Made by a program: the position numbers and the translations under genes. Shown one piece after another: positions 3,755 through 58,261 of a stretch of 64,000 bases of DNA (positions are counted from its first letter, which is position 1; each line of letters opens with the position of its first letter). The stretch covers positions 62,001 to 126,000 of the forward strand of contig WELA01001729.1 of NCBI GenBank assembly GCA_009602735.1, read 5' to 3'. The stretch comes from Mesotaenium endlicherianum. Taxonomy: Eukaryota. The notes beneath the pieces were generated by a model, which ran no database searches, was not told the DNA's origin, and saw only the letters and a list, made by a program, of their open reading frames with translations.

Positions 3755-3862
3755 CTGCTCAATCATAAACACAATGCAGTTAGTGAAGTCATGATATTTT
3801 GCTGCTACTGAGTGCCCTGTATGAAGAGGAACGCGATCGGGAGAGTTCCTAGTGTGAAATAC
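3755..3862 (-). other. Predicted 108 nt intron ending just upstream of the ORF3 type II ATG
   Basis: Minus strand reads CAAG|GTATTT ... CACTAAC ... GAGCAG|G ATG. Confidence 0.6.
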
Positions 3863-29178: not shown

Positions 29179-29928
29179 TGTAATGAATCAGTATATTAGT
29201 GGATATAATATTCATTTAAATCTAATAGTTAATTAAGATCAGCCTGCTGAACTTTAGTTAATAGTCAGTCTGCTGGACTTTACTTTAGTTAATAGTCAGT
29301 CTGCTGGACTTTACATAATTATCAGTTTAATGACTCGGCCGAACGCAACAGGCTGAAGTCAACTTAAGTCAGCTTGCTGACACATTCTTTGACAGCCAGC
29401 TGACTTCCGTGCTCGGTAGCAGCGAACTGCCTTGATATGCATCTAAGTACGACCTGCTAGATGAATGGCCAGATGACATCCCCATGATGGATGGCTATTC
29501 GGGATGATGGGAGATGGCGGTGGATTTGGTTAACCGAGGTCCTACCAACGTGGTTAACTCCCGGGTAGGCGGTGCCATCGCACTGACCGTTGAACAGTAA
29601 ACTCATTCCATGTACATATGCTAGGCATTGCTCTCGAGTTCGGCATTCGGAAACGAGGCCAACTCTCTTGTACAGCTTACTGAGAGAGATCTGAATCCAA
29701 GGCGAGAAGCCATTGATACGCACTGTCTTCTAACCTTGCTTATGTATGAGTTTACTGATTTGCATCATTGATGCTAGTTTACTCGCATTTGACTTACGAG
29801 TATTATTCCCTGCTAGTGTATTGTCCTTTGCCGTTTAACTAGTTAACGGAAATACCATAAAGATTACTTGCTGATATAAAGATCTTTATTAATTGTTAAT
29901 CGCCTATTTGGTAAGTCGATTCATTTCA
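29179..29928 (+). repeat. Family A LTR (750 bp) with a 31 bp tandem duplication
   Basis: TGTAATGAATC..GATTCATTTCA terminal inverted repeat; TTAGTTAATAGTCAGTCTGCTGGACTTTAC occurs twice. Confidence 0.95.
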
Positions 29929-29929
29929 G

Positions 29930-29941
29930 TGGTATCGGAGC
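29930..29941 (+). promoter_or_regulatory. PBS, tRNA-iMet type
   Basis: TGGTATCGGAGC. Confidence 0.92.
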
Positions 29942-29962
29942 AGTTATCACAGTCTTCTTTGT

Positions 29963-31441
29963 ATGGTAAGGACAAGGTCTCAAACTAGCAACTCCCGAGA
30001 CATGGAGAACCAGGATAACGAGAATGTCGAAAACCAGGCGGAAAGCCATGTAGCGGGAAACCGTACCTATTCGGAAGCAGTAGCGGATACTGCAGCTAGG
30101 GAGGCTGCAGATGAGGCAGCTGCTATTGCCTCAGTCGCAGCTCAGCAAGCTGAGGAGGAGATAGCCAGACTAGAAGCTGAACAAGTAGCAAAGGCCGCTG
30201 AAGATATACAAAGGAGGGAAGGACAGCCAGCTGACGAGCGCACTGTTGAAGAACTTATGGCATCAAGGGCCAATGTTCTGAACCCACCTCCTGCCGTACA
30301 ACTCAATGTACCCCTAGGTCAAATACGTGACCGGCTGAATGCGGCAGGAATTGCTGCTGCAGGAGCAAGAGGGATTGTTGAGGACACTACTCAGCGAGTA
30401 GATGCCAATGCTGCTGCTGCATTTGCTAATCTACCACCCCAAAATGTAGACTTGGGAGCATTGTTCGTTCAGATGCAGTCGCAAATGGCGACCATGTATC
30501 AGTCCCAGCAGGAGGACAAAAGAATCATAATGTCCCTACTCCGGGACAGAGACCAACTGGGGTCTCACACCACTAGTGGTGGTGGCCGAGGGCCTAGTAA
30601 GCCCAAGCCGAAACCTCCCCAGGACTATGATCCTGAGGGAAACAGAAAATATTACCTGATCAAGTTTCTCGCGGATGTTGAGCAGTGGCTGGAGAACTAC
30701 CCAGAACTGCAAGATTACGAGAAGGTCAGGCACACCGGTGCGCTACTGAAAGGCAGTGCCGCAGACTGGTGGCTTTACTGGAAGGAAGAGCGTAAGGCTC
30801 GGCAACTCGGTGACCCTACGTGGGTAGAGTTTGTCGAGAAGTTGCATGAGAAGTTTGATGTCATCAACCAGCAGGAGAAAGCTATCTATGCGATGATCTC
30901 CCTGACACTGAAGCAGACCACTTCAGTTGCTGAGTTTGCTCAAAAGTTCCAAGAGAACATGATGAAGCAGCCTGATTTGCCAGAACGGTATAGGATAGCA
31001 TACTTCAGGTATGGCTTGAAATCCGAGGTCTCTGGTCATTTTGCTGAGAAAAAGTATGAGAAACTGGCTGACTTGATCCAGGATGCTGACGCCTGGGATC
31101 AGCAGCAGTTCAATCACAAGCGCCAGAGTAACGCTTTGGTGTCTAAGATTGTCAAAAAGCCCCACGGTTCCTACAATGCAGTTGAAGGAGACCAGGCTGA
31201 GGATAATCAGGGTGATGAATATGAGTATGAGTACAATGCTATTCAGTCTAGAGGTAGAGGTGGTCCCTCTCGAGGTGGCTATGGAAGGGGTGGTGGTAGG
31301 ACTAAGCCGAGACCAGCCTCAGCAAAATCTACTTGCTACCATTGTCAGCAGAAAGGCCACTACAGAGAACAGTGTCCGGTCAAGCACCTGCCTAAGGTCG
31401 AGAGAAAAGACCAGCCTTTAAAAGACAGCAACAGTCAGTAA
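29963..31441 (+). CDS. gag: Family A Gag (492 aa)
   Basis: Intact ORF; capsid-like core, RGG-rich tract, [14 protein letters not shown] knuckle; protein identical to 53847-55325. Confidence 0.95.
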
Positions 31442-31464
31442 TCCAGTCTACTGACTGTGAGGAT
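31417..31464 (+). promoter_or_regulatory. Predicted -1 frameshift signal: slippery heptamer plus hairpin/pseudoknot
   Basis: T_TTA_AAA 31417-31423 in the gag frame; 7 nt spacer; stem ACAGTCAGTA/TACTGACTGT 31431-31458; loop ATCC can pair with GGAT 31461-31464. Confidence 0.82.
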
Positions 31465-34400
31465 GCTAGAGATAGTGAGTCGTCACTAGCTGCCCTCGTA
31501 GCAGGTATTATGGGTCCTGCTGAACTGGATTCACTATGCATGCCTGACAACCAGATAAAGGAGACCATCAGCAATATAGACGTCCAGAGAGTGCACACTC
31601 TGGATGCTCTTGTTCCACCTGATGTCCAACATTTCTTTGCTACGTCAGGAGAACAATGCGAAAGTCAGGAAAAGACAGTCCCCCCTATCCTACTGCATTG
31701 CATGATTGCAGGTAGGAAGGTGAGGGCATTTGTTGACGGAGGGGCGTCACATACTTTTATCCACAAGGACTTAGTTAAGCGGCTAAGGCTGCCTACTGTC
31801 ACCCAAGGGAATAGAAAAATATTCCTTGGAGATGCCTCAAGTATCCCGGGAGGAGTTATAACCAAGCCTATTGAGGTCCAGTTAGGTTCTGGCATTGCAG
31901 TTCTAACTGAAACGCTTACATTTGAGGTACTCAACACTGGCTTTTATGATCTCGTGCTAGGCAGGTCCTGGCTTAATAGACATCAAGCTGAAGTGTGTTG
32001 GAGCAGAGGTACAGTTAAAGTGAGAGGAGCCAGTGATGGGCAGACTGACTTGGCACCCACCAGTGCTCTTCCTCTTGTCCTGTGTGGATGGCAAATGAAG
32101 GAAAAGAAGAGGCTTCCAGAAGGATGCAAGTTGCTGAATGCAATGGAGTTCGTCAAAAGCTGGAACCAGAAGGAAGACAGAATGTTCTGTCTGCTGCTAA
32201 GAGAGGTACCTCCTCAACCTGAAGAAGTGGTTGAGAAAAAGGTACACCCTCCGGAACACCCTACTGCTGCAAACATTGTTGCTCAGTACACGGATGTGTT
32301 TAATATGCCTCCAGGACTACCCCCTAAGCGGGAAGTAGATCATAGGATTGATTTATTACCTGGTAGCCAGCCACCCTGGCAACGCACGTATGGCTTGTCT
32401 TATTTGGAGAGTGAGGAGTTGAAAACACAGATTGCAGAGCTGGAGGAAAATGGTTACATTTCTCCCAGTAAATCACCGTACGGCGCACCTATCCTATTTG
32501 TTAAGAAAAAGGATGGCAGTATGCGGATGTGTGTGGATTACAGAGCCCTGAACAGAATTACAGTAAAGAACAAGTATGCTTTACCCAGAATCGAGGACTT
32601 GCTTGATACCCTGTCTGGCGCTAAGGTGTTCAGTAAGATAGATCTCAAGAGTGGTTATCATCAAATCAGAATTGCTGAGGGGGATGAACACAAGACTGCT
32701 TTCCGCACACGTTATGGACACTTTGAGTTCAACGTGATGCCATTTGGACTGACTAATGCTCCTGCTACCTTTATGGGTGCTATGAATGACATTTTCAGGC
32801 CTTATTTGGATAAGTTTGTGCAAGTTTTCCTGAATGATGTTTTAATTTTCTCTAAAGATGAAGCTCAGCACACTTAAAGAAAGTGCTGGACACTCTGCGG
32901 AAAAATCACTTGTATGCAAAGATGAGCAAGTATGATTTCTTTAAGGAAAGTATTGAATTCTTAGGCCACGTTGTCAGTAAAGAGGGCATCAGTGTGGATC
33001 CTAAGAAAGTCCAGACCATAAGGGACTGGCCAGTACCACAGTCGGTCTCTGAAGTTAGATCCTTCCTCGGGTTGGCTAACTACTATAGGAGATTTATTGA
33101 GAATTATTCCACAAAGGCCAGTAAACTGACTGACCTTACTAAGAAAGACATCGGGTATGTGTGGGGGGAAGAGCAGCAGGCTGCCTTCCAGACCCTTAAA
33201 GATGCCCTTTGTTCTGCCCCAGTGCTAGCCGTGTATGACCCCAGCAAACCGGTGCAGGTGGTTACTGATGCCTCTGATTTTGCCATGGGTGCTATTTTGT
33301 TGCAGCCTGCTGACAAAACCACAAAGGATGGTAAGGTACGGCAGGAGTGGCATCCTGTGTTGTATGAGTCTATGAAATTTAATCCAGCGGAGATTAATTA
33401 CTCAGTGCATGATAAAGAGCTGCTAGCTATCATTCATGTACTCAAACAGTGGAGAGCATACTTACATGGTAAAGCTTTTAAGGTGATTACAGATCATCTA
33501 GCTCTGACCCACTTTCAGAAGAAGTCCAAGCTGTCGAGGAGGGAGAACCGCTGGAGCCAGATGCTGGAGCAGTTCCAAGTCCAGATCGACTACAAACCAG
33601 GGAAGTTGAATCCTGCTGATGCACTCTCTAGAAGACCTGACTTGCAAGAAAGGAACTTTAGTCAGCATACTGTAGATAAAGTCCTGTGTGCACTCACTTC
33701 ACTAAAGGTGAAAAAGTCCTTCCTTGAACAACTTAGGAAAGCCTACCTTTCTGACCCAACATTTGAGCCCAGCCCCACTACTGGTGTGTGTCGTGCTACT
33801 GCACTCGGGTATAAGCTCAAGGGAGGGGTCTGGGTGACTGAAACCACTTCAGGCAGGCTGAAGCTGGTCATTCCTAATAATTTGGAAATAAGGTCTCTCT
33901 TACTGAGTCAAGCTCATGACAGTCTCCTGGGTGGACATTTGGGGCAGGCCAAAACTGTTGGCAAACTGGCAAAACATTATCATTGGGAGGGGTTACCCCG
34001 GGAGGTCTTGAAATATGTCAAGTCCTGTGACCAGTGTCAGAGAAATAAGTCTCGGCACACACCACCCGGAGGTCTCTTGCAACCGCTACCCATCCCAGCG
34101 GGACGCTGGGAAACTATATCCATGGACTGGGTGGTCTCACTACCAAGAACTGCCAACGGGCATGATTCAATACTGGTAGTCGTGGATAAACTGACAAAAA
34201 TGGTCATTTTTATCCCCACAACTGTCAAAGTGACTGCACTCGAAACAGCGAGACAGTTTTACAACCATGTAGTATGCCAACATGGGCTCCCTTCTAATAT
34301 CATCTCAGACAGAGACTCAAAATTCACCTCTAAGTTCTGGAGAGCTTTAATGGGGTTAATGGGAGTCAAACAGCTGCTCAGCACAGCAAACCACCCTCAG

Positions 34401-35219
34401 ACTGATGGGCAGACTGAAAGAACTAACCGAGTTCTGCAGGAGGTGCTGAGAGCATATATTAACCAAAAACAAGATAATTGGGATGACCTGTTGCCTCAAA
34501 TTCAGTTTGCGGTCAACAGTGCGGTGCACGCGTCAACGGGCAAAACTCCTTTTGAACTCAGCCTGGGTAGAGTCCCTAAGTCTCCTCTAGATGTGCTAGG
34601 GGAATCTTTAACTCACCCTGAAGGGATTGACAACCCGGTCTCCCTCCAGTTAACTCAGGAGTTTGCTGACACCCTGTCAGAAGTCCAACGAAACTTGCAC
34701 ACGGCCCAAGAAAACCAACAAAAATACGCTAATCAACACCGTCGGGAACTGACATTTTCCAAGGGGGATTTAGTCAAACTGCATTCTCAGCACCTGTACC
34801 TCCCTGGTGTGGTCAAGAAAAAGCTTGGCCCTGTCTGGGTCGGTCCATATTCGGTGGTCCGTCGTGTCGGTCAGAATGCTTACAAACTGAACATGTCAGC
34901 TGAATACAAGGGGCACCCGGTCTTTAATGTCTCCTTCCTGGAACCGTACATCAAAGGTGATACACTGTTCACAGGTCGGTTCCCTGTCCAACCGGGACCG
35001 GTCCCCGCTGTCCGGGACGGCGACCCTGAGGAATATGAGGTCGATGAGATTTTAGACGCTCGCTCGGTCCGTCGATCGTCTAAATATGTCATGAAATACC
35101 TCATTCGATGGAAGGGTTACGATGCCTCTGGGGACACTTGGGAGTTTAAGGACCACTTGACCAATGCCAAAGGGGCGTTGACACGGTTCCACCTTCGGGC
35201 CGCTGGAGTCCCTCCATAA
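31423..35219 (+). pseudogene. pol: Family A Pol of A1, inactivated (RT catalytic FLDD changed to FLND; 7 bp frameshifting deletion at ~32874)
   Basis: ORFs 31510-32877 and 32883-35219; comparison with 50062-53778 shows loss of GAACACT. Confidence 0.93.
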
Positions 35220-35268
35220 CTGTCATTTCAGTTGACACGGGAAGGTGACAGGCGGTCCTGTCTCCATT

Positions 35269-35281
35269 TAAGTTGGAGGGG
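35269..35281 (+). promoter_or_regulatory. Internal PPT-like duplicate directly after pol
   Basis: TAAGTTGGAGGGG, same as the terminal PPT 37263-37275; preceded by hairpin GACAGG/CCTGTC 35247-35262. Confidence 0.7.
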
Positions 35282-35382
35282 AAAATATATGACAGTTAGT
35301 GAGCGAGAGCGATAAAAACACACTCATACGTTTATGTGTAGCGCATCGCAACTACGTCAACTTTTAGCAATCATCCTGTAAG

Positions 35383-35485
35383 GTAAACAGCAGCGAAGCC
35401 ACTATACTAAATACTAACATACTTCCTGCAATCCCTATGACAAAGGTCCATATCCTACTAACTTGTGCCCTGGTTACATGTGCAG
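35383..35485 (+). other. Predicted 103 nt intron ending just upstream of the ORF3 ATG
   Basis: AAG|GTAAAC donor, TACTAAC at 35456-35462, TGCAG|G ATG (ATG at 35487). Confidence 0.65.
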
Positions 35486-35486
35486 G

Positions 35487-37163
35487 ATGGCGCCCACCAC
35501 ACAAAAGGAGGACAGAAAGCGCAAGGCAGAAGAAGCCAGGAGGACAATGGAGCAATACCAGAAGGAGCTGGCGGCGACGTCCCTCACCAGGAGAGAACAA
35601 GAAAGGGTCCGCAAACAACAAGAGGCGGCAGAAGAGGCACAGAGGAAGAAGGATCAGGAAGCGGAAAACCTCAGGAAGGCTGAGGAGGAGAGACAGAAGA
35701 AACAGCAAGAAGAAGCGGCAGCGGCAGAAGAGGAGAAAAGAAAAAAGATTGAAGCGGACAGACAGAAGAGCTTGGCCACTTACAGGTATACTGTGGTGGG
35801 TGGCCAAAACTTCGATAACCTGAAGGAAGCATTGCTGGCAGCCCAGGAGATCAACAGGCTGGAACAGACAACACTGCTACAGAAGGAAGGAGCTACAGCA
35901 CTGGACAGGTACATCGAGACACACACCGGCGTGGTCCTTTACGAAGATTATGCTAAGATGGTGGGCTATACAGCAGAGCAGGCCCGGTATCTCGCAGATG
36001 ATTCAGAGGACAAGCCGGTCCCCATACCGGGAATAGTGGGAGATCAGAGACTCATCCGGATGGTGAGCATGCGGCCCGATAGCTTTAAGGATACGGTATT
36101 CTACCTCACACTCCTGCCAGCTTACAATGAAGTTGAGAGAAGGAGCTGGGAGTACTTGGCCAGGGAAGCAGGACAGCAGATGTTCTCTCCCCACTGGTTC
36201 CCGTGTAAACTGAGGAAGGCTGAGCACGGACCCCAGTACTACCAGCAGCCAACAGACTGGAGGTGGATGACCGTCACAAATAAGAAGCAGGAGTGTGACC
36301 GAGCCCAACCGGATGACTTCCACTATGGCCTAGACGGCTATCTCATCCTACCACCTCACATTGCCCCTTGGGACCCCAGGCTGAATGGATGCCTGAGCAA
36401 TATGAATGCAGAGACCAAGGAACATAGGAGGAGGGGAAGAGAGTACTTCTCTAAGGGAAAGCATGCCTTTGTCAAATGGGCAAAGAATGCAGGCCGGATA
36501 GATATCAGTAGGCTGAAGGCCAAGCAACCTCCAGCGCGCCCTAAGAAAGGGAGGTCGGTAGACTACTCCATGTCTACTAGGGAGCAGGACGACTTAGTGG
36601 ACGAGACCCCTACTCTCTCCGAGGAGGAGGATGAGGAGGATGAGGAAGAAGAACAAGGCAGAGGAGAAGCATCAGCAGCAGGTACTCAGGATACCCAGGG
36701 ACAGGCAGGGGCGCTTCCTAAAGAACCACGATCAGGTGTTTGGAATGTGATCCCCGTTATGGCGACAACTGGACCCCGCGCTCGCTCCCCCAGCCCACCT
36801 GCCCAAGCAGGGGAAGAAGCTGATCTGACTGTACTGGGCAGCAGACACAGACAGAAATCCCCAGAGGACAGGGGTGCCAGAAGAGGGACACGCGGGTGGG
36901 CCAGAGGTATGCCAGCCTCCCCCTCCGCTCAGGGGCATGTACCTCTAGCCAATGTATTTCAGCATCCTACTGGAATGCCTGTCTATGTGGGAATCAACAC
37001 CCAAGTGGTTGAAGAGCAGGCCACCATCCTCCGTTCTCCTCGAGGGCCAACTTTAGAGCAAACAGGGTTCTTTAGAAGGCCAGCTGACAGACCTAGAGGG
37101 CTGTCCAGATCTAGGTCCAGATCTCCGTCTCCTGACCCTGAAGCCCCAGGAACAACCCCTTAA
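35487..37163 (+). CDS. ORF3 type I, accessory protein of unknown function (558 aa from ATG 35487)
   Basis: Intact ORF between pol and PPT; charged coiled-coil-like N-terminus, aromatic-rich conserved core, acidic tract, RS/SP-rich tail; five homologous copies in the window. Confidence 0.9.
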   Translation: MAPTTQKEDRKRKAEEARRTMEQYQKELAATSLTRREQERVRKQQEAAEEAQRKKDQEAENLRKAEEERQKKQQEEAAAAEEEKRKKIEADRQKSLATYRYTVVGGQNFDNLKEALLAAQEINRLEQTTLLQKEGATALDRYIETHTGVVLYEDYAKMVGYTAEQARYLADDSEDKPVPIPGIVGDQRLIRMVSMRPDSFKDTVFYLTLLPAYNEVERRSWEYLAREAGQQMFSPHWFPCKLRKAEHGPQYYQQPTDWRWMTVTNKKQECDRAQPDDFHYGLDGYLILPPHIAPWDPRLNGCLSNMNAETKEHRRRGREYFSKGKHAFVKWAKNAGRIDISRLKAKQPPARPKKGRSVDYSMSTREQDDLVDETPTLSEEEDEEDEEEEQGRGEASAAGTQDTQGQAGALPKEPRSGVWNVIPVMATTGPRARSPSPPAQAGEEADLTVLGSRHRQKSPEDRGARRGTRGWARGMPASPSAQGHVPLANVFQHPTGMPVYVGINTQVVEEQATILRSPRGPTLEQTGFFRRPADRPRGLSRSRSRSPSPDPEAPGTTP

Positions 37164-37276
37164 GGTGACACGCTGAAGAGGCAGTCAGTAAGGGAGGCTG
37201 GTCAGGTTCAGTTCCCTTATTTAAAATTTCTGCAGTTTAATGTTGTCGAGGCGACAACAAGTTAAGTTGGAGGGAT

Positions 37277-38028
37277 TGTAATGAATCAGTATATTAGTGG
37301 ATATAATATTCATTTAAATATAATAGTTAATTAAGATCCGCCTGCTGAACTTTAGTTAATAGTCAGTCTGCTGGACTTTACTTTAGTTAATAGTCAGTCT
37401 GCTGAACTTTACATAATTATCAGTTTGCTGACTGAGTCGAAAGCAGCAGGCTCGAAGTCCATATAAGTCAGCTTGCTGACACATTCTTTGACAGCAAGCT
37501 GACTTCCGTACTCGGTAGCAGCAAACTACCCTGATATGCATCTAAGTTCGGTATGCTAGATGTATAGCCAGATGACATCCCTATGATGGATGGCTATTCG
37601 GGATGATGCGAGATGGCGGTGGATTTGGTTATCCGAGGTCCTACCAACGTGGTTAACTCCCGAATAGGCGGTGCCATCGCACCGACCGTTGAACAGTAAA
37701 CTCATTCCATGTACATACGCTAGGCATTGCTCTCGAGTTCGGCATTCGGACACGAGGCCAACTCTCTTGTACAGCTTACTGAGAGAGATCTGAATCCAAG
37801 GCGAGAAGCCATTGATACGCACTGTCTTCTAACCTTGCTTATGTATGAGTTTACTGATTTGCATTATTGATGCTAGTTTACTCTCATTTGACTGACGAGT
37901 ATTATTCACTGCTAGTGTGTTGTCCTTTGCCGTTAAACCAGTTAACGGAAAATACCATAAAGATTACTTGCTGATATAAAGATCTTTATTAATTATTAAT
38001 CGCCTTTTTAGTAACCGGATTCATTTCA
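37277..38028 (+). repeat. Family A LTR with chimeric 3' tip
   Basis: Follows the PPT; tip GCCTTTTTAGTAA resembles LTR 15876-16592; followed by GTATG. Confidence 0.93.
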
Positions 38029-38084: not shown

Positions 38085-38886
38085 CGAAATGAATCGACTT
38101 ACCAAATAGGCTATTAACAATTAATAAAGATCTTTATATCAGCAAGTAATCTTTATGGTATTTTCTGTTGATTAATTCAACAGCAAAAAATAATATACTA
38201 GCAGTGGACAATACTCGTAAGTCAAATGGAAGTAAATTAACATCAATAATACAATCAATAAACTCACATATAAGCAAGGCTAGGAGATAGTGCATATCAA
38301 TGGCTTCTCGCTCTCGATTCAGATCTCTCTTAGAAGCAGTACAGGAGAGTTGGCCTCGTTTCCGAATGCCGAACTTGAGAGCAATCCTAGCATATGTATA
38401 TGAAATGAGTTTACTGTTCAACGGCCAGTGCGATGGCACCACCTACCCGGGAGTTAACCACGTTGGTAGGACCTCGGTTGACCAAATCCACCGCCATCTC
38501 CCATTATCTCGAATTGCCATCCATCCGGAGGATGTCATTTGCCCATTTATCTAGCACACCACACTTAGATGCATATCTAGGCAGTTCGCTGCTACCGAAT
38601 ACGGAAGTCAGCTGGCTGTCAAAGAATGTGTCAGCAAGCTGACCTAAGTTGACGTCAGCCTGCTACTCCCGGCTGAGTCATTAAATTGATTATTTAATAG
38701 AGTCCACCAGACTCAATATTAACTAAAGTTCAGCAGGCTGAACTTATATAACTATTATATTTAAATGAATATTATATCAACCAATATACTGATTAATTAC
38801 AATCCCTCCAACTTAACGTGCTGTCGTCTTGACAACACTAACACTAGTAACAGCGTGCTGTCCCTTCCGTCCCCAGCCTCCTGCCA

Positions 38887-40545
38887 TTAGGAGGGAGATG
38901 TCCCTGGGGCCCTACACTCAAGAGAGCCAGACCTCGTCCTGTCTTGGGGTCTGCTGAAGCCTGAGGGATCCGCGTAGGGGCCTCGCAAAGTACGCAGTAA
39001 GTGGGCTGTTTCCTCGTGCACAGTCTGAAAATGAAGGGAGGCAGCCTTCTCCTGGGCAGCCCTCAAACTGACAGGTACATATACCAGCATCCCAGAAGGA
39101 TCTTGCATGACATGAGCCAAAGGCATATGCTCTCTCTGCGAGGGAGATGTTGGCAGGCCTTTGGCTATCTCCCTAGCAGCCCTCCTGTCTGCCCTGTCAG
39201 ACTGGGTCTCCGTGCCTGCAGATGGGCTCTGTCCTCTGGCAGTTCCCAGCCAAGTGATGTCCTCCTCTTCAGCGAGCTGTTGCAAGGCCATCCCAGTCTT
39301 CTCCCTTACAGGGGATGTGACAGGTGTCAGGACCACAGCGGAGCAAGTGTCCTCCTCCTCGCCTTCCTCTTCTTCTTCTTCTGACCCCTCCTCCTCTCCT
39401 TCCCCTGGTTCCTCTGAGACCGCTGGGGTCTCCTCTGTCAACTGCTCTAACTCTTCCCGAGAAAATGAATATTCCACTGACCATCCCCTTTTGGGTGCTG
39501 GTGGAGGCTGTTGAGTTCGGACCGCATATAGGTCCTTTTCTCCCTGCTTGCTTGCCCATTTGGCATAAGCATGCTTCCCTTTAGAGAATGACTCTCGGGC
39601 CCTGCTCCTGTCATCGTGCATTTTTTGGCTCATGCAGTCTCTCCCTCCATCCAGTCTTGGGTCCCAAGCTGCAATGTGAGGAGGCAACAGTATGTTCCCC
39701 TGTAGGCCTGTTAGGAAATCCTCATCCTTCGCCTTGTCATTCTGCTGGTCCCTCATATTAATGGTCATTCACCGCCAATCGGTGGGCTTCTGGAAAAAGG
39801 CAGGGTCTGTCCTTTTCAGAGTGCACGAGTACCAGTGCCTTGCAAAGTCCAGCTGACTGGTTTTCCTGGCCAAGAACTCCCAGCTTCTCCTCTCCACCTC
39901 ATTATATATGGCCTTGAACCGGTTATGGGGTGTAGAGTCCTTAAAGCTGTCCTCGTCCATGGGGATCATCCTGATGACCCTGTCCTTTCCCCAGGTACCC
40001 GGGATCGATACAACTCTTGTCTCATTCACTTGGGCCATTGCCTTGGCCTCTCTGACTGTATACCCTACCATCCTGGCATAATCGTGGTAGAGGAGTAGCC
40101 CTGTGCTGACCTCGATATACTTGTCAAAGTGTTCGAATGTCTCCCTTTCCCTCTGTAGGATGTTCTGCTGTGCCTCACTGCGACTTCTCTGGGCATACCT
40201 GAAGGCCTCCTCCAGTAGATGAAAGCCCTTGCCCAGTACTGTGTAGCGGTAGCTGTTGATTCTCCTCTGTTGTTCTTCTTCAGCCTGCTGCTTCTGCCTC
40301 TCCTCAACTTGCCTCTCCTCTTCCGCCTACTTGGCCTCCTCTGCAGCTTTTCTGTCCAGTTCTTCCTGCCTCAGCCTGGCTTGCTTCTCCTCCTCCTTCT
40401 TCTTCTGTGCCTCCCGCTGTTATTGGAGTCGTTGTGATTCCCAAGCGGAGATGAAGGATGATTTGATGTCGCCACGGAATTACAAGTATCCTGCATGTGC
40501 CTCTTCCGCTCTACTCTTCCTCTTAAGTTCCGACTTCTGGGTCAT
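38887..40545 (-). pseudogene. ORF3 type II, full span but with stop/frameshift
   Basis: ORFs 39769-40071 and 38887-39768 are separated by one TGA; ATG at 40545; C-terminal motif HMPLAHVMQDPSGMLVYV homologous to type I HVPLANVFQHPTGMPVYV. Confidence 0.88.
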
Positions 40546-40546
40546 C

Positions 40547-40648
40547 CTGCTCAAACACAATGCAGTCAGAAGAGTCATGATACTTGGCCGCTATTGAGTG
40601 CCCGTGGTTAAGAAGAACGTGATAGGGAGAGTCCCTAGTGTGTAGTAC
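40547..40648 (-). other. Predicted 102 nt intron upstream of the ORF3 type II ATG
   Basis: Minus strand reads CAAG|GTACTA ... TTCTGAC ... GAGCAG|G ATG. Confidence 0.6.
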
Positions 40649-42683
40649 CTTGTGTGAGTGAGCATAAGAGAGAATTGAGTTAGAGAGAAAAAGTGAGTAT
40701 GAGCGCAGGTTGAGTGTGTAAAATGGTTATAAAATTTGCCTGGCTGATCCCGAAACGGAATACACTCCCTCCAACTTAATTTTAAAGGTGGGTTGCCTGT
40801 CACAACTGTCACTATCTGTCACTAACTGTCACATTCCCCTCTAACTTATACGGAGACAGGACCTCCTGTCACCTGTCCGTAACCACTGAAATGACAGTTA
40901 GGGAGGGGTGCCAGCCGCCCAAAGGTGGAACCATTTCAACGCCCCTTTGGCATTGGTCAGCGGGTCTTTAAATTCCCAAGTGTCCCCAGAGGCATCGAAC
41001 CCCTTCCATCCGACCAGGTACTTCATGACATGATCGACGGACAGAGCGAGCGTCTAAAATCTCCTCCACCTCATATTCCTCGGGGTCACCATCCCAGACA
41101 GCGGGGACCGGTCCCGGTTGGACAGGTAACCGACCTGTGAACAGTGTGTCACCTTTGATGTATGGTTCCAGGAAGGAGACATTAAAGACCGGGTGACCCT
41201 TATATTTTGCTGACATGTTCAGTTTGTAAGCATTCTGACTGACACGGCGCACCACCGAATATAGATCGACGTAGACAGGACCAAGCTTTTTCTTGACCAC
41301 GCCAGGTAAATACAGGTGCAGAGAATGCAGTTTGACCAAATCGCCGTTAGAAAATGTCGATTCTCGACGGTGCTGATTAGCGTGTTTTTGTTGGTTTGCC
41401 TGGGCATTGTGCAGGTTCTGTTGGACTTCTGACAGGCAGTCACCAAACTCTTGTGTTAACTGGAGGGAGATCGGATTGTCAAAGACTCCCCTAGTACATC
41501 TAAAGGAGACTTAGGGACTCTACCCAGGCTCAGTTGAAAAGGAGTCTTGCCCGTTGACGCGTGCACCGCACTGTTGATCGCAAACTGGATTTGACGTAAC
41601 AGGTCATTCCAATTATCTTATTTTTGGTTAGTATAGCCTCTCAGTACCTCTTGCAGAGCTCGATTACTTCTTTCAGTCTGCCCATCAGTCTGAGGGTGGT
41701 TTGCTGTGCTGAGCAGCTGCTTGACTCTCATTAACCCCATTAAAGCTCTCCACAACTTAGAGGTAAATTTTGAGTCTCTGTCTGAGATGATATTAGAGGG
41801 TAGCCCATGTTGGCATACTACTTGCTTGTAGAACTGTCTCGATGTTTCGAGTGCAGTAACTTTGACAGTTGTGGGGATGAAAATGACCATTTTTGTTAAT
41901 TTATCCACTACTACCAGTATCGAATCATGCCCATTGGCAGTTCTTGGTAGTGCTACCACCCAGTCCATGGATATTGTTTCCCAGCGGCCAGTTGGGATGG
42001 GCAGCGGTTGTAAGAGGCCCTTCGGTGGTGTGTGCCTAGACTTATTCCCTTGGCACTGGTCACAGGATTTTACATATTCTAAGACCTCCCGAGGTAAGTC
42101 CTCCCAATGATAATGTTTTGCCAATTTGCCAACATTTTTGGCCTGCCCCAAATGCCCAGTAAACTGTCATGTGCTTGACTCAGTAAAAGGAACCTTATTT
42201 CCAAGTTATCAGGAATCACCAACTTCAGCCTGCCTGAAGTGGTTACAGTCACCCAGACCCCACCCTTAAGTCGATACCCAAGTGCAGTAGCAGGACACAC
42301 ACCATCAGTGGGGCTGGGCTCAAATGTTGGGTTAAAAAGTTAGGCTTTCCTAAGTTGTTCAAGAAAGGACTTTTTCACCTTTAGTGAAGTGAGTGCACAA
42401 AGAACTTTGTTTACAGCATGCTGACTAAAGTTCCTTTCTTGCAAGTCAAGTCTTCTAGAGAGTGCATCAGCAGGATTCAACTTCCCTGGTTTGTAGTCAA
42501 TTTGGACTTGAAACTGCTCCAGAATCTGGCTCCAGCGGTTCTCCCTCCTTGACAGCTTGGACTTCTTCTGAAAGTGAGTCAGATCTGGATGATCTGTAAT
42601 CACCTTAAGAGGTTTACCATGTAAGTATGCTCTCCACTATATGAGCACATGAATGATTGCTAGCAGCTCTTTATCATGTACAG

Positions 42684-47285: not shown

Positions 47286-48117
47286 TGAAATGAATCGCCT
47301 TACCAAATAGGCGATTAACAATTAATAAAGATCTTTATATCAGCAAGTAATCTTATAGTATTTCCGTTAATTAGTTAAACGGCAAAGGACAATACACTAG
47401 CAGGGAATAATACTCGTAAGTCAAATGCGAGTAAACTAGCATCAATGATGCAAATCAGTAAACTCATACATAAGCAAGGTTAGAAGACAGTGCGTATCAA
47501 TGGCTTCTCGCCTTGGATTCAGAGTTCTCTCAGTAAGCTGTACAAGAGAGTTGGCCTCGTTTCCGAATGCCGAACTCGAGAGCAATGCCTAGCATATGTA
47601 CATGGAATGAGTTTACTGTTCAACGGTCAGTGCGATGGCACCGCCTACCCGGGAGTTAACCACGTTGGTAGGACCTCGGTTAATCAAATCCACCGCCCAT
47701 CTCTTATCATCCCGAATAGCCATCCATCATGGGGATGTCATCTGGCCATTCATCTAGCGGGTCGTACTTAGATGCATATCAAGGCAGTTCGCTGCTACCG
47801 AGCACGGAAGTCAGCTGGCTGTCAAAGAATGTGTCAGCAAGCTGACTTAAGTTGACTTCAGCCTGTTGCTTTCGGCCGAGGCATTCAACTGATAATTATG
47901 TAAAGTCCAGCAGACTGATTATTAACTAAAGTTCAGCAGGCTGAACTGAATTAACTATTAGATTTAAATGAATATTATATCCACTAATATACTGATTCAT
48001 TACAATCCCTCCAACTTAACATGTTGTCGCCTCGACAACATTAAACTGCAGAAATTTTAAATAAGGGAGCTGAACCTGACCAGCCTTCCTTACTGACTGC
48101 CTCTTCAGCGTGTCACC

Positions 48118-49794
48118 TTAAGGGGTTGTTCCTGGGGCTTCAGGGTCAGGAGACGGAGAGCTGGACCTAGATCTGGACAGCCCTCTAGGTCTGTCAGCTG
48201 GCCTTCTAAAGAACCCTGTTTGCTCTAAAGTTGGCCCTCGAGGAGAACGGAGGATGGTGGCCTGCTCTTCAACTATTTGGGTGTTGATTCCCACATAGAC
48301 AGGCATTCCAGTAGGATGCTGAAATACATTGGCTAGAGGTACATGCCCCTGAGCGGAGGGGGAGGCTGGCATACTTCTGGCCCACCCGCGTGTCTCTCTT
48401 CCGGCACCCCTGTCCTCTGGGGATTTCTGTCTGTGTCTGCTGCCCAGTACCGTCAGATCAGCTTCTTCCCCTGCTTGGGCAGGTGGGCTGGGGGAGCGAG
48501 CGCGGGGTCCAGTTGTCGCCATAACGGGGATCACATTCCACACACCTGATCGTGGTTCTTTAGGAAGTGCCACTGCCTGTCCCTGGGTATCCTGAGTACC
48601 TGCTGCTGATGCTTCTCCTCTGCCTTGTTCTTCTTCCTCATCCTCCTCATCCTCCTCCTCGGAGAGAGTAGGGGTCTCGTCCACTAAGTCGTCCTGCTCC
48701 CTAGTAGACATGGAGTAGTCTACCGACCTCCCTTTCTTAGGGCGCGCTGGAGGTTGCTTGGCCTTCAGCCTACTGATATCTATCCGGCCTGCATTCTTTG
48801 CCCATTTGACAAAGGCATGCTTTCCCTTAGAGAAGTACTCTCTTCCCCTCCTCCTATGTTCCTTGGTCTCTGCATTCATATTGCTCAGGCATCCATTCAG
48901 CCTGGGGTCCCAAGGGGCAATGTGAGGTGGTAGGATGAGATAGCCGTCTAGGCCATAGTGGAAGTCATCCGGTTGGGCTCGGTCACACTCCTGCTTCTTA
49001 TTTGTGACGGTCATCCACCTCCAGTCTGTTGGCTGCTGGTAGTACTGGGGTCCGTGCTCAGCCTTCCTCAGTTTACACGGGAACCAGTGGGGAGAGAACA
49101 TCTGCTGTCCTGCTTCCCTGGCCAAGTACTCCCAGCTCCTTCTCTCAACTTCATTGTAAGCTGGCAGGAGTGTGAGGTAGAATACCGTATCCTTATAGCT
49201 ATCGGGCCGCAAACTCACCATCCGGATGAGTCTCTGATCTCCCACTATTCTCGGTATGGGGACCGGCTTGTCCTCTGAATCATCTGCGAGATACCGGGCC
49301 TGCTCTGCTGTATAGCCCACCATCTTAGCATAATCTTCGTAAAGGACCACGCCGGTGTGTGTCTCGATGTACCTGTCCAGTGCTGTAGCTCCTTCCTTCT
49401 GTAGCAGTGTTGTCTGTTCCAGCCTGTTGATCTCCTGGGCTGCCAGCAATGCTTCCTTCAGGTTATCGAAGTTTTGGCCACCCACCACAGTATACCTGTA
49501 AGTGGCCAAGCTCTTCTGCCTGTCCGCTTCAATCTTTTTTCTTTTCTCCTCGTCTGCCGCTGCCGCTTCTTCTTGCTGTTTCTTCTGTCTCTCCTCCTCA
49601 GCCTTCCTGAGGTTTTCCGCTTCCTGATTCTTCTTCCTCTGTGCCTCTTCTGCCGCCTCTTGTTGCTTGCGGACCCTTTCTTGTTCTCTCCTGGTGAGGG
49701 ACGTCGCCGCCAGCTCCTTCTGGTATTGCTCCATTGTCCTCCTGGCTTCTTCTGCCTTGCGCTTTCTGTCCTCCTTTTGTGTGGTGGGCGCCAT
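48118..49794 (-). CDS. ORF3 type I (558 aa), intact
   Basis: 11 aa differences from 35487-37163 by manual comparison; predicted intron 49796-49898 upstream. Confidence 0.9.
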   Translation of the reverse strand: MAPTTQKEDRKRKAEEARRTMEQYQKELAATSLTRREQERVRKQQEAAEEAQRKKNQEAENLRKAEEERQKKQQEEAAAADEEKRKKIEADRQKSLATYRYTVVGGQNFDNLKEALLAAQEINRLEQTTLLQKEGATALDRYIETHTGVVLYEDYAKMVGYTAEQARYLADDSEDKPVPIPRIVGDQRLIRMVSLRPDSYKDTVFYLTLLPAYNEVERRSWEYLAREAGQQMFSPHWFPCKLRKAEHGPQYYQQPTDWRWMTVTNKKQECDRAQPDDFHYGLDGYLILPPHIAPWDPRLNGCLSNMNAETKEHRRRGREYFSKGKHAFVKWAKNAGRIDISRLKAKQPPARPKKGRSVDYSMSTREQDDLVDETPTLSEEEDEEDEEEEQGRGEASAAGTQDTQGQAVALPKEPRSGVWNVIPVMATTGPRARSPSPPAQAGEEADLTVLGSRHRQKSPEDRGAGRETRGWARSMPASPSAQGHVPLANVFQHPTGMPVYVGINTQIVEEQATILRSPRGPTLEQTGFFRRPADRPRGLSRSRSSSPSPDPEAPGTTP

Positions 49795-50061
49795 CCTGCA
49801 CATGTAACCAGGGCACAAGTTAGTAGGATATGGACCTTTGTCATAGGGATTGCAGGAAGTATGTTAGTATTTAGTATAGTGGCTTCGCTGCTGTTTACCT
49901 TACAGGATGATTGCTAAAAGTTGACGTAGTTGCGATGCGCTACACATAAACGTATGAGTGTGTTTTTATCGCTCTCGCTCACTAACTGTCATATATTTTC
50001 CCCTCCAACTTAAATGGAGACAGGACCGCCTGTCACCTTCCCGTGTCAACTGAAATGACAG

Positions 50062-53000
50062 TTATGGAGGGACTCCAGCGGCCCGAAGGTGGAACCGTGT
50101 CAACGCCCCTTTGGCATTGGTCAAGTGGTCCTTAAACTCCCAAGTGTCCCCAGAGGCATCGTAACCCTTCCATCGAATGAGGTATTTCATGACATATTTA
50201 GACGATCGACGGACCGAGCGAGCGTCTAAAATCTCATCGACCTCATATTCCTCCGGGTCGCCGTCCCGGACAGCGGGGACCGGTCCCGGTTGGACAGGGA
50301 ACCGACCTGTGAACAGTGTATCACCTTTGGTGTACGGTTCCAGGAAGGAGACATTAAAGACCGGGTGCCCATTGTATTCAGTTGACATGTTCAATTTGTA
50401 AGCATTCTGACCGACACGACGGACCACCAAATATGGACCGACCTTGACAGGGCCAAGCTTTTTCTTGACCACACCAGGGAGGTACAGGTGCTGAGAATGC
50501 AGTTTGACTAAATCCCCCTTGGAAAATGTCAGTTCCCGACGGTGTTGATTAGCGTATTTTTGTTGGTTTTCTTGGGCCGTGTGCAAGTTTCGTTGGACTT
50601 CTGACAGGGTGTCAGCAAACTCCTGAGTTAACTGGAGGGAGACCGGGTTGTCAATCCCTTCAGGGTGAGTTAAAGATTCCCCTAGCACATCTAGAGGAGA
50701 CTTAGGGACTCTACCCAGGCTGAGTTCAAAAGGAGTTTTGCCCGTTGACGCGTGCACCGCACTGTTGACCGCAAACTGAATTTGAGGCAACAGGTCATCC
50801 CAATTATCTTGTTTTTGGTTAATATATGCTCTCAGCACCTCCTGCAGAACTCGGTTAGTTCTTTCAGTCTGCCCATCAGTCTGAGGGTGGTTTGCTGTGC
50901 TGAGCAGCTGTTTGACTCCCATTAACCCCATTAAAGCTCTCCAGAACTTAGAGGTGAATTTTGAGTCTCTGTCTGAGATGATATTAGAAGGGAGCCCATG
51001 TTGGCATACTACATGGTTGTAAAACTGTCTCGCTGTTTCGAGTGCAGTCACTTTGACAGTTGTGGGGATAAAAATGACCATTTTTGTCAGTTTATCCACG
51101 ACTACCAGTATTGAATCATGCCCGTTGGCAGTTCTTGGTAGTGAGACCACCCAGTCCATGGATATAGTTTCCCAGCGTCCCGCTGGGATGGGTAGCGGTT
51201 GCAAGAGACCTCCGGGTGGTGTGTGCCGAGACTTATTTCTCTGACACTGGTCACAGGACTTGACATATTTCAAGACCTCCCGGGGTAACCCCTCCCAATG
51301 ATAATGTTTTGCCAGTTTGCCAACAGTTTTGGCCTGCCCCAAATGTCCACCCAGGAGACTGTCATGAGCTTGACTCAGTAAGAGAGACCTTATTTCCAAG
51401 TTATTAGGAATGACCAGCTTCAGCCTGCCTGAAGTGGTTTCAGTCACCCAGACCCCTCCCTTGAGCTTATACCCGAGTGCAGTAGCACGACACACACCAG
51501 TAGTGGGGCTGGGCTCAAATGTTGGGTCAGAAAGGTAGGCTTTCCTAAGTTGTTCAAGGAAGGACTTTTTCACCTTTAGTGAAGTGAGTGCACACAGGAC
51601 TTTATCTACAGCATGCTGACTAAAGTTCCTTTCTTGCAAGTCAGGTCTTCTAGAGAGTGCATCAGCAGGATTCAACTTCCCTGGTTTGTAGTCGATCTGG
51701 ACTTGGAACTGCTCCAGCATCTGGCTCCAGCGGTTCTCCCTCCTCGACAGCTTGGACTTCTTCTGAAAGTGGGTCAGAGCTAGATGATCTGTAATCACCT
51801 TAAAAGCTTTACCATGTAAGTATGCTCTCCACTGTTTGAGTACATGAATGATAGCTAGCAGCTCTTTATCATGCACTGAGTAATTAATCTCCGCTGGATT
51901 AAATTTCATAGACTCATACAACACAGGATGCCACTCCTGCCGTACCTTACCATCCTTTGTGGTTTTGTCAGCAGGCTGCAACAAAATAGCACCCATGGCA
52001 AAATCAGAGGCATCAGTAACCACCTGCACCGGTTTGCTGGGGTCATACACGGCTAGCACTGGGGCAGAACAAAGGGCATCTTTAAGGGTCTGGAAGGCAG
52101 CCTGCTGCTCTTCCCCCCACACATACCCGATGTCTTTCTTAGTAAGGTCAGTCAGTTTACTGGCCTTTGTGGAATAATTCTCAATAAATCTCCTATAGTA
52201 GTTAGCCAACCCGAGGAAGGATCTAACTTCAGAGACAGACTGTGGTACTGGCCAGTCCCTTATGGTCTGGACTTTCTTAGGATCCACACTGATGCCCTCT
52301 TTACTGACAACGTGGCCTAAGAATTCAATACTTTCCTTAAAGAAATCACACTTGCTCATTTTAGCATACAAGTGATTTTTCCGCAGAGTGTCCAGCACTT
52401 TCTTTAAGTGTTCAGTGTGCTGAGCTTCATCTTTAGAGAAAATTAAAATATCATCCAGGAAAACTTGCACAAACTTATCCAAATAAGGTCTGAAAATGTC
52501 ATTCATAGCACCCATAAAGGTAGCAGGAGCATTAGTCAGTCCAAATGGCATCACGTTGAACTCATAGTGTCCATAACGTGTGCGGAAAGCAGTCTTGTGT
52601 TCATCCCCCTCAGCAATTCTGATTTGATGATAACCACTCTTGAGATCTATCTTACTGAACACCTTAGCGCCAGACAGGGTATCAAGCAAGTCCTCGATTC
52701 TGGGTAAAGCATACTTGTTCTTTACTGTAATTCTGTTCAGGGCTCTGTAATCCACACACATCCGCATACTGCCATCCTTTTTCTTAACAAATAGGATAGG
52801 TGCGCCGTACGGTGATTTACTGGGAGAAATGTAACCATTTTCCTCCAGCTCTGCAATCTGTGTTTTCAACTCCTCGCTCTCCAAATAAGACAAGCCATAA
52901 GTGCGTTGCCAGGGTGGCTGGCTACCAGGTAATAGATCAATCCTATGATCTACTTCCCTTTTAGGGGGTAGTCCTGGAGGCATGTTAAACACATCAGTGT

Positions 53001-53865
53001 ACTGAGCAACAATTTTTGCAGCAGTAGGGTGCTCCGGAGGGCTTACCTTTTTCTCAACCACTTCTTCAGGTTGAGGAGGTACCTCTCTTAGCAGCAGACA
53101 GAACATTCTGTCTTCCTTCTGGTTCCAGCTTTTGACGAACTCCATTGCATTCAGCAACTTGCATCCTTCTGGAAGCCTCTTCTTTTCCTTCATTTGCCAT
53201 CCACACAGGACAAGAGGAAGAGCACTGGTGGGTGCCAAGTCAGTCTGCCCATCACTGGCTCCTCTCACTTTAACTGTACCTCTGCTCCAACACACTTCAG
53301 CTTGATGTCTATTAAGCCAGGACCTGCCTAGCACGAGATCATAAAAGCCAGTGTTGAGTACCTCAAATGTAAGCGTTTCAGTTAGAACTGCAATGCCAGA
53401 ACCTAACTGGACCTCAATAGGCTTGGTTATAACTCCTCCCGGGATACTTGAGGCATCTCCAAGGAATATTTTTCTATTCCCTTGGGTGACAGTAGGCAGC
53501 CTTAGCCGCTTAACTAAGTCCTTGTGGATAAAAGTATGTGACGCCCCTCCGTCAACAAATGCCCTCACCTTCCTACCTGCAATCATGCAATGCAGTAGGA
53601 TAGGGGGGACTGTCTTTTCCTGACTTTCGCATTGTTCTCCTGACGTAGCAAAGAAATGTTGGACATCAGGTGGAACAAGAGCATCCAGAGTGTGCACTCT
53701 CTGGACGTCTATATTACTGATGGTCTCCTTTATCTGTTTGTCAGGCATGCATAGTGAATCCAGTTCAGCAGGACCCATAATACCTGCTACGAGGGCAGCT
53801 AGTGACGACTCACTATCTCTAGCATCCTCACAGTCAGTAGACTGGATTACTGACTGTTGCTGTCT
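50062..53865 (-). CDS. pol: Family A Pol: protease, RT, RNase H, integrase, chromodomain (entered by -1 frameshift at 53871-53865)
   Basis: 1238 aa open frame; [44 protein letters not shown]. Confidence 0.95.
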
Positions 53866-55325: not shown

Positions 55326-56110
55326 ACAAAGAAGACTGTGATAACTGCTCCGATACCACTGAAATGAATCGACTTACCAAATAGGCGATTAACAATTAAT
55401 AAAGATCTTTATATCAGCAAGTAATCTTTATGGTAATTTCCGTTAACTGGTTAAACGGCAAAGGACAATACACTAGCAGTGAATAATACTCGTAAGTCAA
55501 ATGCGAGTAAACTAGCATCAATAATGCAAATCAGTAAACTCATACATAAGCAAGGTTAGAAGACAGTGCGTATCAATGGCTTCTCGCCTTGGATTCAGAT
55601 CTCTCTCAGTAAGCTGTACAAGAGAGTTGGCCTCGTTTCCGAATGCCGAACTCGAGAGCAATGCCTAGCATATGTACATGGAATGAGTTTACTGTTCAAC
55701 GGTCAGTGCGATGGCACCGCCTACCCGGGAGTTAACCACGTTGGTAGGACCTCGGTTAACCAAATCCACCGCCATCTCCCATCATCCCGAATAGCCATCC
55801 ATCATGGGGATGTCATCTGGCCATTCATCTAGCAGGTCGTACTTAGATGCATATCAAGGCAGTTCGCTGCTACCGAGCACGGAAGTCAGCTGGCTGTCAA
55901 AGAATGTGTCAGCAAGCTGACTTAAGTTGACTTCAGCCTGTTGCGTTCGGCCGAGTCATTAAACTGATAATTATGTAAAGTCCAGCAGACTGACTATTAA
56001 CTAAAGTAAAGTCCAGCAGACTGACTATTAACTAAAGTTCAGCAGGCTGATCTTAATTAACTATTATATTTAAATGAATATTATATCCACTAATATACTG
56101 ATTCATTACA

Positions 56111-57900: not shown

Positions 57901-58261
57901 CGATAGACCACCTTAACTGCCATTTCAATAGACATGGGAAGGTGACAGGGCGGTTGTTTCTCCATTTAAGTTGGAGGGAAATGTGACAGTTAAGTGTCAC
58001 CATAGTGACAGATGTGACAACCAGGCCCACCTTGAGCAAAGTTGGAGGGTGTCCACCACTTGGAAGGAGGGAGGGACCAGTACATGAACAAATCACTCAA
58101 CTCACCCTGCACACACATACCTTCGTTTATTCTCATCACGCTACAGCTCAATTAACTCCTAGTACCCACTCTGTAGAATAAGGGAACAACTCTGCTGTAA
58201 TAATACAAACTTACTCCTCTTTCTGCATCTATTGTGACAATGAATGATATCCTACTAACTT

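What the first reader, a model, noticed from the sequence alone, without database searches (positions are those of the whole stretch)
35247..37276. ORF3 is a cassette bracketed by duplicated hairpin+PPT signals and apparently exchangeable
Seen: TAAGTTGGAGGG occurs both ~50 nt after the pol stop (35269-35281) and before the 3' LTR (37263-37275). Each is preceded by a hairpin (GACAGG/CCTGTC 35247-35262; TGTTGTCG/CGACAACA ~37241-37259). In older copies the internal PPT is followed by an LTR-like TGTGACAG and a further PPT-like copy (~3980-3992 and 4038-4052; ~40766-40778; ~57967-57979 and ~58039-58049). Similarity between type I and type II copies ends just after TGACAGTTAGTGA and resumes only at the terminal hairpin, while their gag/pol remain highly similar. 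Inference: either an ancestral pol-PPT-LTR end whose old LTR decayed into the ORF3 promoter, or a second plus-strand priming site; ORF3 alleles may be swapped between backbones by template switching at these repeats.
Basis: partly seen in the sequence, partly recalled or inferred. Interest (0 to 1): 0.75.

Follow-up and report, generated by a model that had tools for sequence, protein, structure and literature searches.

The report
Swapped third gene in a retrotransposon
A jumping-gene family carries an unknown third gene between two copies of its DNA-priming signal, and two very different versions of that gene sit on closely related backbones, likely exchanged by copying errors at those signals.

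Summary
The window is a nest of chromodomain Ty3/Gypsy retrotransposons, probably of a non-seed plant or alga. Family A has a 558-aa orphan ORF3 between pol and the 3' LTR. A 13-nt polypurine tract (PPT) occurs both 49 nt after the pol stop and before the LTR. The internal copy is better conserved than neutral sites. ORF3 comes in two homologous types (about 48% amino-acid identity, synonymous sites saturated) on backbones 90-93% identical. Identity falls sharply within about 35 nt of the PPT blocks, so at least one whole-gene exchange happened. Corrections: the two hairpins are unrelated in sequence. The stretch after the internal PPT shows no LTR similarity beyond TG. Types I and II are homologues, not unrelated. 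The break against copy Y lies at the second internal PPT. A1 and A2 are not independent copies. One swap is enough to explain the data. Best reading: reverse-transcriptase template switching at the conserved PPT blocks; internal priming is untested. An extra PPT, extra ORFs and inter-element recombination are each known, so this is a new variant of a known kind.

The parts
29179..29928 (+). 5' LTR of copy A1 (TG...CA)
29930..29941 (+). primer binding site, plant-type initiator tRNA-Met (tRNA match recalled)
29915..31441 (+). gag (stop to stop; Ty3 capsid, zinc knuckle)
   Evidence: Pfam run on the A2 copy
31396..35219 (+). pol PR-RT-RH-IN-chromodomain; split into two frames near 32862-32877 in A1, one frame in A2
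35217..35298 (+). conserved non-coding block; 9-nt inverted repeat 35217-35225 / 35290-35298 encloses the hairpin and PPT1
   Evidence: no compensatory changes
35247..35262 (+). internal 6-bp hairpin
35268..35280 (+). internal PPT copy (PPT1), 13 nt identical to the terminal PPT
35281..35316 (+). left break zone; degenerate GTGACA repeats; A1 is about 95 nt shorter here than Y and lacks PPT2
35383..35485 (+). candidate 5'-UTR intron (AG|GT donor, TACTAAC branch-like site, CAG acceptor 1 nt before ATG); same layout in type II; predicted only
   Evidence: no RNA support
35487..37163 (+). ORF3 type I, 558 aa; charged N-terminus, conserved core of about 290 aa, acidic and Arg/Ser-rich tail; no membrane segment, no homologue found
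37207..37243 (+). right break zone (type I v type II)
37241..37259 (+). terminal 8-bp hairpin
37262..37274 (+). terminal PPT, 2 nt before the LTR
37277..38028 (+). 3' LTR next to A1 (94% identical to A1's 5' LTR; its target duplication pairs with the LTR at 15876)
2362..4052 (-). copy A0: PPT1, PPT2 and broken, truncated ORF3 type II
38804..40848 (-). copy X: PPT1, PPT2, broken ORF3 type II, terminal hairpin and PPT
47286..56110 (-). copy A2, 98% identical to A1 over 8.86 kb; not independent
57967..59702 (+). copy Y: PPT1, PPT2 and broken ORF3 type I on the most diverged pol

Best explanation
This chromodomain Gypsy family carries a conserved orphan third gene between two copies of its polypurine tract, and two deeply diverged versions of that gene sit on closely related gag-pol/LTR backbones, likely because reverse transcriptase switched between co-packaged RNAs at the conserved PPT blocks and replaced the whole gene at least once. 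Shown: duplicate PPT, purifying selection on ORF3, constraint on the internal block, and sharp breaks at both blocks. Inferred: the two parent RNAs were too different inside ORF3 to recombine there, so the PPT/hairpin blocks were the last homology on each side. Their stems may also pause the enzyme. Also inferred: the internal PPT marks the old pol-PPT-LTR end and has been kept by selection, most likely as an auxiliary plus-strand primer like Ty1 PPT2 or the HIV central PPT. ORF3 is predicted to be made from its own spliced RNA as a soluble, probably nuclear accessory protein rather than an envelope.
For: Distance jump: third-position identity A1/A0 is 87% in pol and 42-44% in ORF3, while A0/X stays at 83% and 82-83%. 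Fourfold sites A1/A0 are 231 of 263 in pol and 17 of 52 in ORF3. Informative sites: pol 23:11:9 for A1A0|XY, ORF3 core 208:3:4 for A1Y|A0X. ORF3 rejects the pol topology (p-AU about 2e-5), and the ORF3 branch separating A0+X is 0.96 against at most 0.015 in pol. LTRs track pol, not ORF3 (A1 v A0 91%, v X 89%), so both edges were crossed. Breaks lie at 35280-35312 and 37207-37243; Y v type II similarity ends 3 nt after PPT2. dN/dS of the ORF3 core is 0.14-0.24 in the 5 pairs with finite dS, like pol at 0.18-0.32. PPT1 shows 1 change across 4 copies where 6.9 are expected (P=0.008). The non-coding block exceeds fourfold-site identity in the three pairs with Y (P=0.001-0.025) but not in the three closer pairs. 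Among 2159 contigs from four runs, none of the 36 listed variant rows falls in 35269-35345. The A1 junction stands with no other letter in contigs of three other organism labels (X7 35223-35519, X9 35254-35344, X5 35254-35317), and a type II-style continuation after PPT1 stands in X5 and X7. So both arrangements are amplified lineages. Hairpins and homology promote retroviral template switching (PMC3187697, passages).
Against: Only four independent copies were compared. Pol does not reject the ORF3 topology (p-AU 0.062; 0.10 with gag and protease added), so direction and number of swaps are open. Breaks at the last conserved bases are also expected from ordinary recombination anywhere in the flanks. 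A1's own left edge is confounded by a deletion of about 95 nt. PPT2 conservation is only marginal (P=0.06), and A1 has lost PPT2. The absence of variants in the 12-nt PPT is not significant alone (7 rows in the 49 nt before it), and contigs break nearby. The proposed stems show no compensatory change, and two variant rows fall in the outer arm (35221, 35225). The window itself has been rearranged between inverted copies. No donor backbone was found, and priming was not observed.
Confidence: 0.5

Rival explanations
1. The two ORF3 types diverged in place as old haplotypes of one co-packaging family. Ordinary recombination kept pol and the LTR homogeneous up to the last homologous base. The internal block is conserved as ORF3 promoter or RNA structure, not as primer or switch site.
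For: It gives the same distance pattern. GTGACA repeats, a 9-bp inverted repeat and a shared intron-like layout lie in the block. Mixed continuations follow PPT1 in 37 contigs of X1, with agreement 0.59.
Against: It does not explain why the internal tract stays identical to the terminal PPT for 13 nt. Pol quartet sites favour one topology in most 200-nt windows rather than a patchwork, though weakly.
Confidence: 0.25
2. The internal PPT primes plus-strand DNA, so the ORF3 block is made as a separate PPT-to-PPT fragment that is displaced and taken up by the other genome copy (strand displacement-assimilation). This would make it a true cassette.
For: The fragment's predicted ends match the breaks, and Y v type II similarity ends 3 nt after PPT2. 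TG follows PPT1 at 3 nt in 3 of 4 copies. The model is described for avian retroviruses (PMC3187697, passage).
Against: Assimilation needs homology, and the types are about 55% identical. Upstream-primed DNA is said to be outcompeted by the natural PPT (PMC2829016, passage). Nothing here shows priming.
Confidence: 0.12
3. The mosaics arose after insertion, by ectopic recombination, gene conversion or nested insertion with deletion, or in the assembly.
For: Target duplications pair across copies (15876 LTR with A1 3' LTR, A1 5' with A2 3', A2 5' with X 3'). A1 and A2 5' LTRs are 99.5% alike while their own 3' LTRs are 94% and 97% alike.
Against: A0 and X are separate insertions (89% alike) with the same type II junction. 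Both junctions occur in independent public contigs. A chromosomal event could still have founded a lineage that then amplified.
Confidence: 0.1
4. No exchange took place and ORF3 simply evolves faster.
For: The pol topology test is not significant against the ORF3 tree. A1/Y dS is higher in ORF3 (0.87 v 0.52).
Against: A0/X shows no such jump (dS 0.26 v 0.33), dN/dS is unchanged, and only the internal branch lengthens about 60-fold.
Confidence: 0.03

Closest known systems
Bongo3 (Tekay chromovirus of Beta vulgaris), additional PPTa (PMC3605345, passages)
   Same: A chromovirus with a second PPT just after the chromodomain at the gag-pol stop and the functional PPT before the 3' LTR.
   Different: There PPTa overlaps the stop codon. 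The passages seen mention no third ORF between the PPTs and no exchange.
Athila4/Calypso and Sirevirus extra PPTs (PMC2829016, passages; the original Athila4 paper was not held)
   Same: Extra identical PPTs in the pol-LTR linker of elements with an additional sense ORF; role unclear.
   Different: These are not chromoviruses. Most Sirevirus extra PPTs lie after the ENV-like gene (56 of 63), whereas here the extra PPTs precede ORF3. ORF3 has no membrane segment.
Plant extra ORFs in sense between pol and 3' LTR (PMC6317226, section 9, passages and two supplements; PMC7264820, first third of text)
   Same: Lineage-specific extra ORF with no known domain; 18% of Tekay chromoviruses have one.
   Different: None is listed for Tcn1, Chlamyvir, Galadriel, Reina or CRM. 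This element has an aromatic-cage chromodomain, said to be limited to non-seed plants.
ORF3/env exchange and inter-element recombination: bdelloid LTR elements (PMC5408684, passages), ERV env swapping (PMC10536682, abstract), grass CR recombinants (PMC4079200, passages), review PMC6894440 (passages)
   Same: The third gene or other modules are exchanged between backbones, and template switching is proposed.
   Different: The passages seen do not place both breakpoints at duplicated PPTs.
Ty1 PPT2 and HIV-1 central PPT (PMC2829016, PMC3187697, passages)
   Same: An internal duplicate of the 3' PPT.
   Different: Those lie in coding sequence near the middle and are shown to prime. Here the copy is non-coding, 69% along the element, and untested.

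Membership tests
Ty3/Gypsy LTR retrotransposon | gag, then PR-RT-RNaseH-integrase order | tested here: met
Ty3/Gypsy LTR retrotransposon | TG...CA LTRs, 5-bp target duplications, PBS, PPT | tested here: met
   (duplications pair across rearranged copies)
Chromovirus | chromodomain at the integrase C-terminus | tested here: met
   PF00385 E=2.1e-8; Y/W/Y cage residues read by eye
Chromovirus clade (Tcn1, Chlamyvir, Galadriel/Galahad, Tekay) | placement in a reverse-transcriptase tree with reference elements | not tested
   no labelled references at hand; best named hits Closterium and Haematococcus, top hits 37-49%
Tcn1 clade | self-priming, no tRNA PBS (83% of members) | tested here: not met
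   tRNA-Met-type PBS; overlapping gag/pol frames do match Tcn1
env-like third ORF (Athila, Sirevirus, errantivirus) | sense ORF between pol and 3' LTR | tested here: met
env-like third ORF (Athila, Sirevirus, errantivirus) | transmembrane segment | tested here: not met
   highest 19-residue hydropathy 0.73 in A1; 0.7 and 0.9 in type II pieces
env-like third ORF (Athila, Sirevirus, errantivirus) | spliced subgenomic mRNA | tested here: inconclusive
   splice-like signals in both types; no reads on ORF3
central/second PPT (Ty1 PPT2, HIV cPPT) | internal duplicate of the 3' PPT under constraint | tested here: met
central/second PPT (Ty1 PPT2, HIV cPPT) | primes plus-strand DNA | not testable with these tools
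   needs extrachromosomal DNA
relic LTR after the internal PPT | sequence similarity to an LTR | tested here: not met
   0 of 16 comparisons beat shuffles; only TG follows the PPT

The most novel reading that the evidence does not exclude
The internal PPT is an active plus-strand primer, and the PPT-to-PPT interval works as a modular cassette. A pool of several accessory-gene types is swapped repeatedly among backbones through the priming signals themselves, giving a retrotransposon a built-in gene-exchange slot.
Probability: 0.15. Interest if true: 0.75.

Novelty: new variant of a known kind. Interest (0 to 1): 0.45.

Why it matters
How LTR retrotransposons gain and trade extra genes (the step that made retroviruses) and what extra PPTs do are both open questions; the Sirevirus paper calls the role of multiple PPTs unclear. 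This family is a high-copy natural test case: an orphan gene under purifying selection, two types, and breaks at duplicated priming signals. A genome-wide breakpoint map plus plus-strand end mapping could tie the two questions together. If the PPT blocks are only the last homologous bases, the case reduces to ordinary recombination in a family with an extra ORF.

Tried and rejected
No whole genome is held, so no genome-wide trees or search for ORF3-less copies could be made. ORF3 homologue searches gave nothing: 0 of 5018 candidates; 0 at E<=0.001 among 1.84 billion representatives; 212 pattern matches, none confirmed, in metagenome contigs. Pfam gave only a weak low-complexity hit, PHROGs none, and PDB only thymidylate kinase at E>=0.11, taken as chance. 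The Atlas did not hold the sequence. The fold was unusable (pLDDT 34.9), so no fold search was run. No RNA holder was listed. Three poly(A) runs of one study, 6-12% of each read, gave zero depth on ORF3 type I (35456-36817) and almost none on type II. This leaves the intron and the promoter untested; the one contig spanning the candidate intron (X7, RNA only guessed) is unspliced. ORF3-less copies: no internal-PPT-to-LTR joint among 15 of 311 joints shown and no LTR start among 10 of 111 loose ends shown; this does not exclude them. The pol search in metagenomes gave 3 distant loci (32-41%), not informative. Covariation in the stems: none. Earlier findings of this scan: none. Literature: the searches listed no paper, in the titles and passages I saw, with ORF3 exchange bounded by duplicated PPTs. 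Steinbauerova 2011 and Wright and Voytas 2002 were seen only as references. Additional files 1 and 3 of PMC6317226 were too large to read and may bear on novelty. PMC1142308, PMC3185511 and PMC3350952 were read as passages only.

Full report
Setting. The window is a nest of LTR retrotransposons. Family A has gag and an overlapping pol with protease, RT, RNase H, integrase and chromodomain. It has 750-bp TG...CA LTRs and a PBS of the plant initiator tRNA-Met type (the tRNA match is recalled). The best named pol hits are Closterium and Haematococcus proteins, top hits at 37-49%. The chromodomain keeps the aromatic cage, which PMC6317226 limits to non-seed plants (section 9). I therefore infer a non-seed plant or alga; the host was not identified. 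No genome was held. Copies used: A1 (29179-38028, +), A2 (47286-56110, -), A0 (8759 to 2362, -), X (42681 to 38085, -) and Y (about 56113-59836, +).

Observation. The 12-mer is at 35269-35280 and 37263-37274, and 13 nt are identical. There are 12 matches with up to one mismatch against 0.44 expected; 11 are homologous PPT sites. A0, X and Y have two internal copies about 60-70 nt apart, separated by GTGACA repeats. Both hairpins exist, but the sequences upstream of the two PPTs are unrelated, and a 6-bp stem is found in 199 of 8824 windows. The stretch after the internal PPT begins with TG in 3 of 4 independent copies but resembles no LTR in the window (0 of 16 comparisons).

ORF3. It is a 558-aa open frame in A1 and A2 and is broken in A0, X and Y. 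Types I (A1, A2, Y) and II (A0, X) are homologues at 48% amino-acid identity over the core. dN/dS is 0.14-0.24 in the five pairs with finite dS, as in pol, so the gene mattered to the element. It has no membrane segment and no homologue in any library searched. The fold failed. Both types show a donor, a branch-like site and a CAG acceptor just before the ATG, although their promoters do not align. This predicts a separate spliced transcript. RNA did not test it: three poly(A) runs, 6-12% read, had no reads on ORF3 type I.

Exchange. Identity of A1 to A0 is 92% up to 35296 and 56% after it; the right break is at 37207-37243. Third positions fall from 87% to 42-44% for A1/A0 and stay at 82-83% for A0/X. 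dS is 0.20 v saturated, against 0.26 v 0.33 for the control pair. Quartet sites are 23:11:9 in pol and 3:4:208 in the ORF3 core. ORF3 rejects the pol topology, but pol does not reject the ORF3 topology (p-AU 0.062; 0.10 with gag and protease added, where I assumed from nesting which 5' fragments belong to X and Y). At least one whole-gene exchange is therefore needed, and one is enough: capture of type II by the ancestor of A0 and X. LTRs follow pol, so both edges were crossed.

Where the left edge lies. Y, a type I copy, shares about 74 nt after PPT1 with type II, and the match ends 3 nt after PPT2. A1 is about 95 nt shorter in this linker. Public contigs show loose ends behind 35316 and before 35315, and the latter resemble Y's linker by eye. 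Either way the edge lies at or within about 35 nt of a PPT copy.

Independence and artefact check. Target-site duplications pair across copies, and the A1 and A2 5' LTRs are closer to each other than to their own 3' LTRs. The region has been inverted and homogenised, in the chromosome or in the assembly, so A1 and A2 count as one. The junctions are nonetheless real beyond this locus. Contigs of three other organism labels bridge the A1 junction with no other letter, and two of them also hold the type II-style continuation. In X1, 37 contigs leave the reference just after PPT1 with only 0.59 agreement, which hints at further types; only 10 of 111 loose ends were shown.

Is the internal PPT kept? 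One change is seen across four copies where 6.9 are expected from fourfold sites (P=0.008); for PPT2, two changes against 6.1 (P=0.06). The 79-nt block after the stop is more conserved than fourfold sites in the three pairs with Y but not in the three close pairs. Recent homogenisation could mimic this. None of 36 variant rows falls in the PPT, which is consistent but not significant alone. A 9-bp inverted repeat from the stop codon to the first TGACAG encloses the hairpin and PPT1 in all four copies (94% of cells paired), with no compensatory change.

Mechanism. Most likely (0.5): copy-choice switching during reverse transcription between co-packaged RNAs whose only homology next to ORF3 was the two PPT blocks, with the internal PPT retained as an auxiliary primer. 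Rivals are in-place haplotypes with recombining flanks (0.25), exchange of a PPT-primed plus-strand fragment (0.12), a chromosomal founding event (0.10) and rate change (0.03). That an exchange occurred is about 0.9 likely; the use of the PPT in it is inference.

Comparison with known systems. A second PPT at the pol stop is described in the chromovirus Bongo3 (PMC3605345). Extra PPTs are described in Athila4, Calypso and Sireviruses (PMC2829016). Sense extra ORFs occur in 18% of Tekay elements and are not listed for the non-seed clades. Exchange of third ORFs and inter-element recombination are described in bdelloid elements, ERVs and grass CR elements. I did not see the combination, an orphan gene exchanged between duplicated PPTs, in the searches run, but two key papers and two large supplements could not be read. 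Verdict: real, a new variant of a known kind, interest 0.45.

Noticed in passing
window 15876, 29179, 38028-38085, 47286, 56110: 5-bp target duplications pair across different copies, implying two inversions between inverted family A copies (one flips a 54-bp pol piece at 38029-38082); A1/A2 interiors look homogenised. Could be chromosomal or an assembly effect.
   Followed up: partly
window 35381-35487; 3864-3757 (-); 40650-40549 (-): The same intron-like layout lies before the ORF3 start in both types although the promoter sequences do not align.
   Followed up: partly
window 4016-4036, 40797-40872, 57942-58011: Clusters of GTGACA(G) around the internal PPT; TGACAG is a TALE-homeodomain (KNOX/BELL) site by recall, which could tie ORF3 to a life stage. 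Untested.
   Followed up: no
window 33640-35455: Poly(A) reads mostly with the first mate on + (probably antisense to pol) and many differences, stopping near the internal PPT region; likely from another copy.
   Followed up: no
window 18051-25255: Family B element (target duplication AGCAT) has about 880 nt without a long ORF between pol and its terminal PPT, and an inverted LTR inserted at the pol end; a purine tract at 24160 resembles family A's PPT with 2 mismatches.
   Followed up: partly
window 8762-13257: A 4.5-kb stretch with a 378-bp direct repeat, a tRNA-Met-type PBS at 9282, a 140-bp inverted repeat and short matches to family C, but no long ORF; possibly a decayed or non-autonomous element.
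   Followed up: no
runs X1-X20: Near-identical copies (share of words 0.61-0.91) in runs under five organism labels and seven studies: recent activity across close species, transfer, or host DNA in mixed samples.
   Followed up: no
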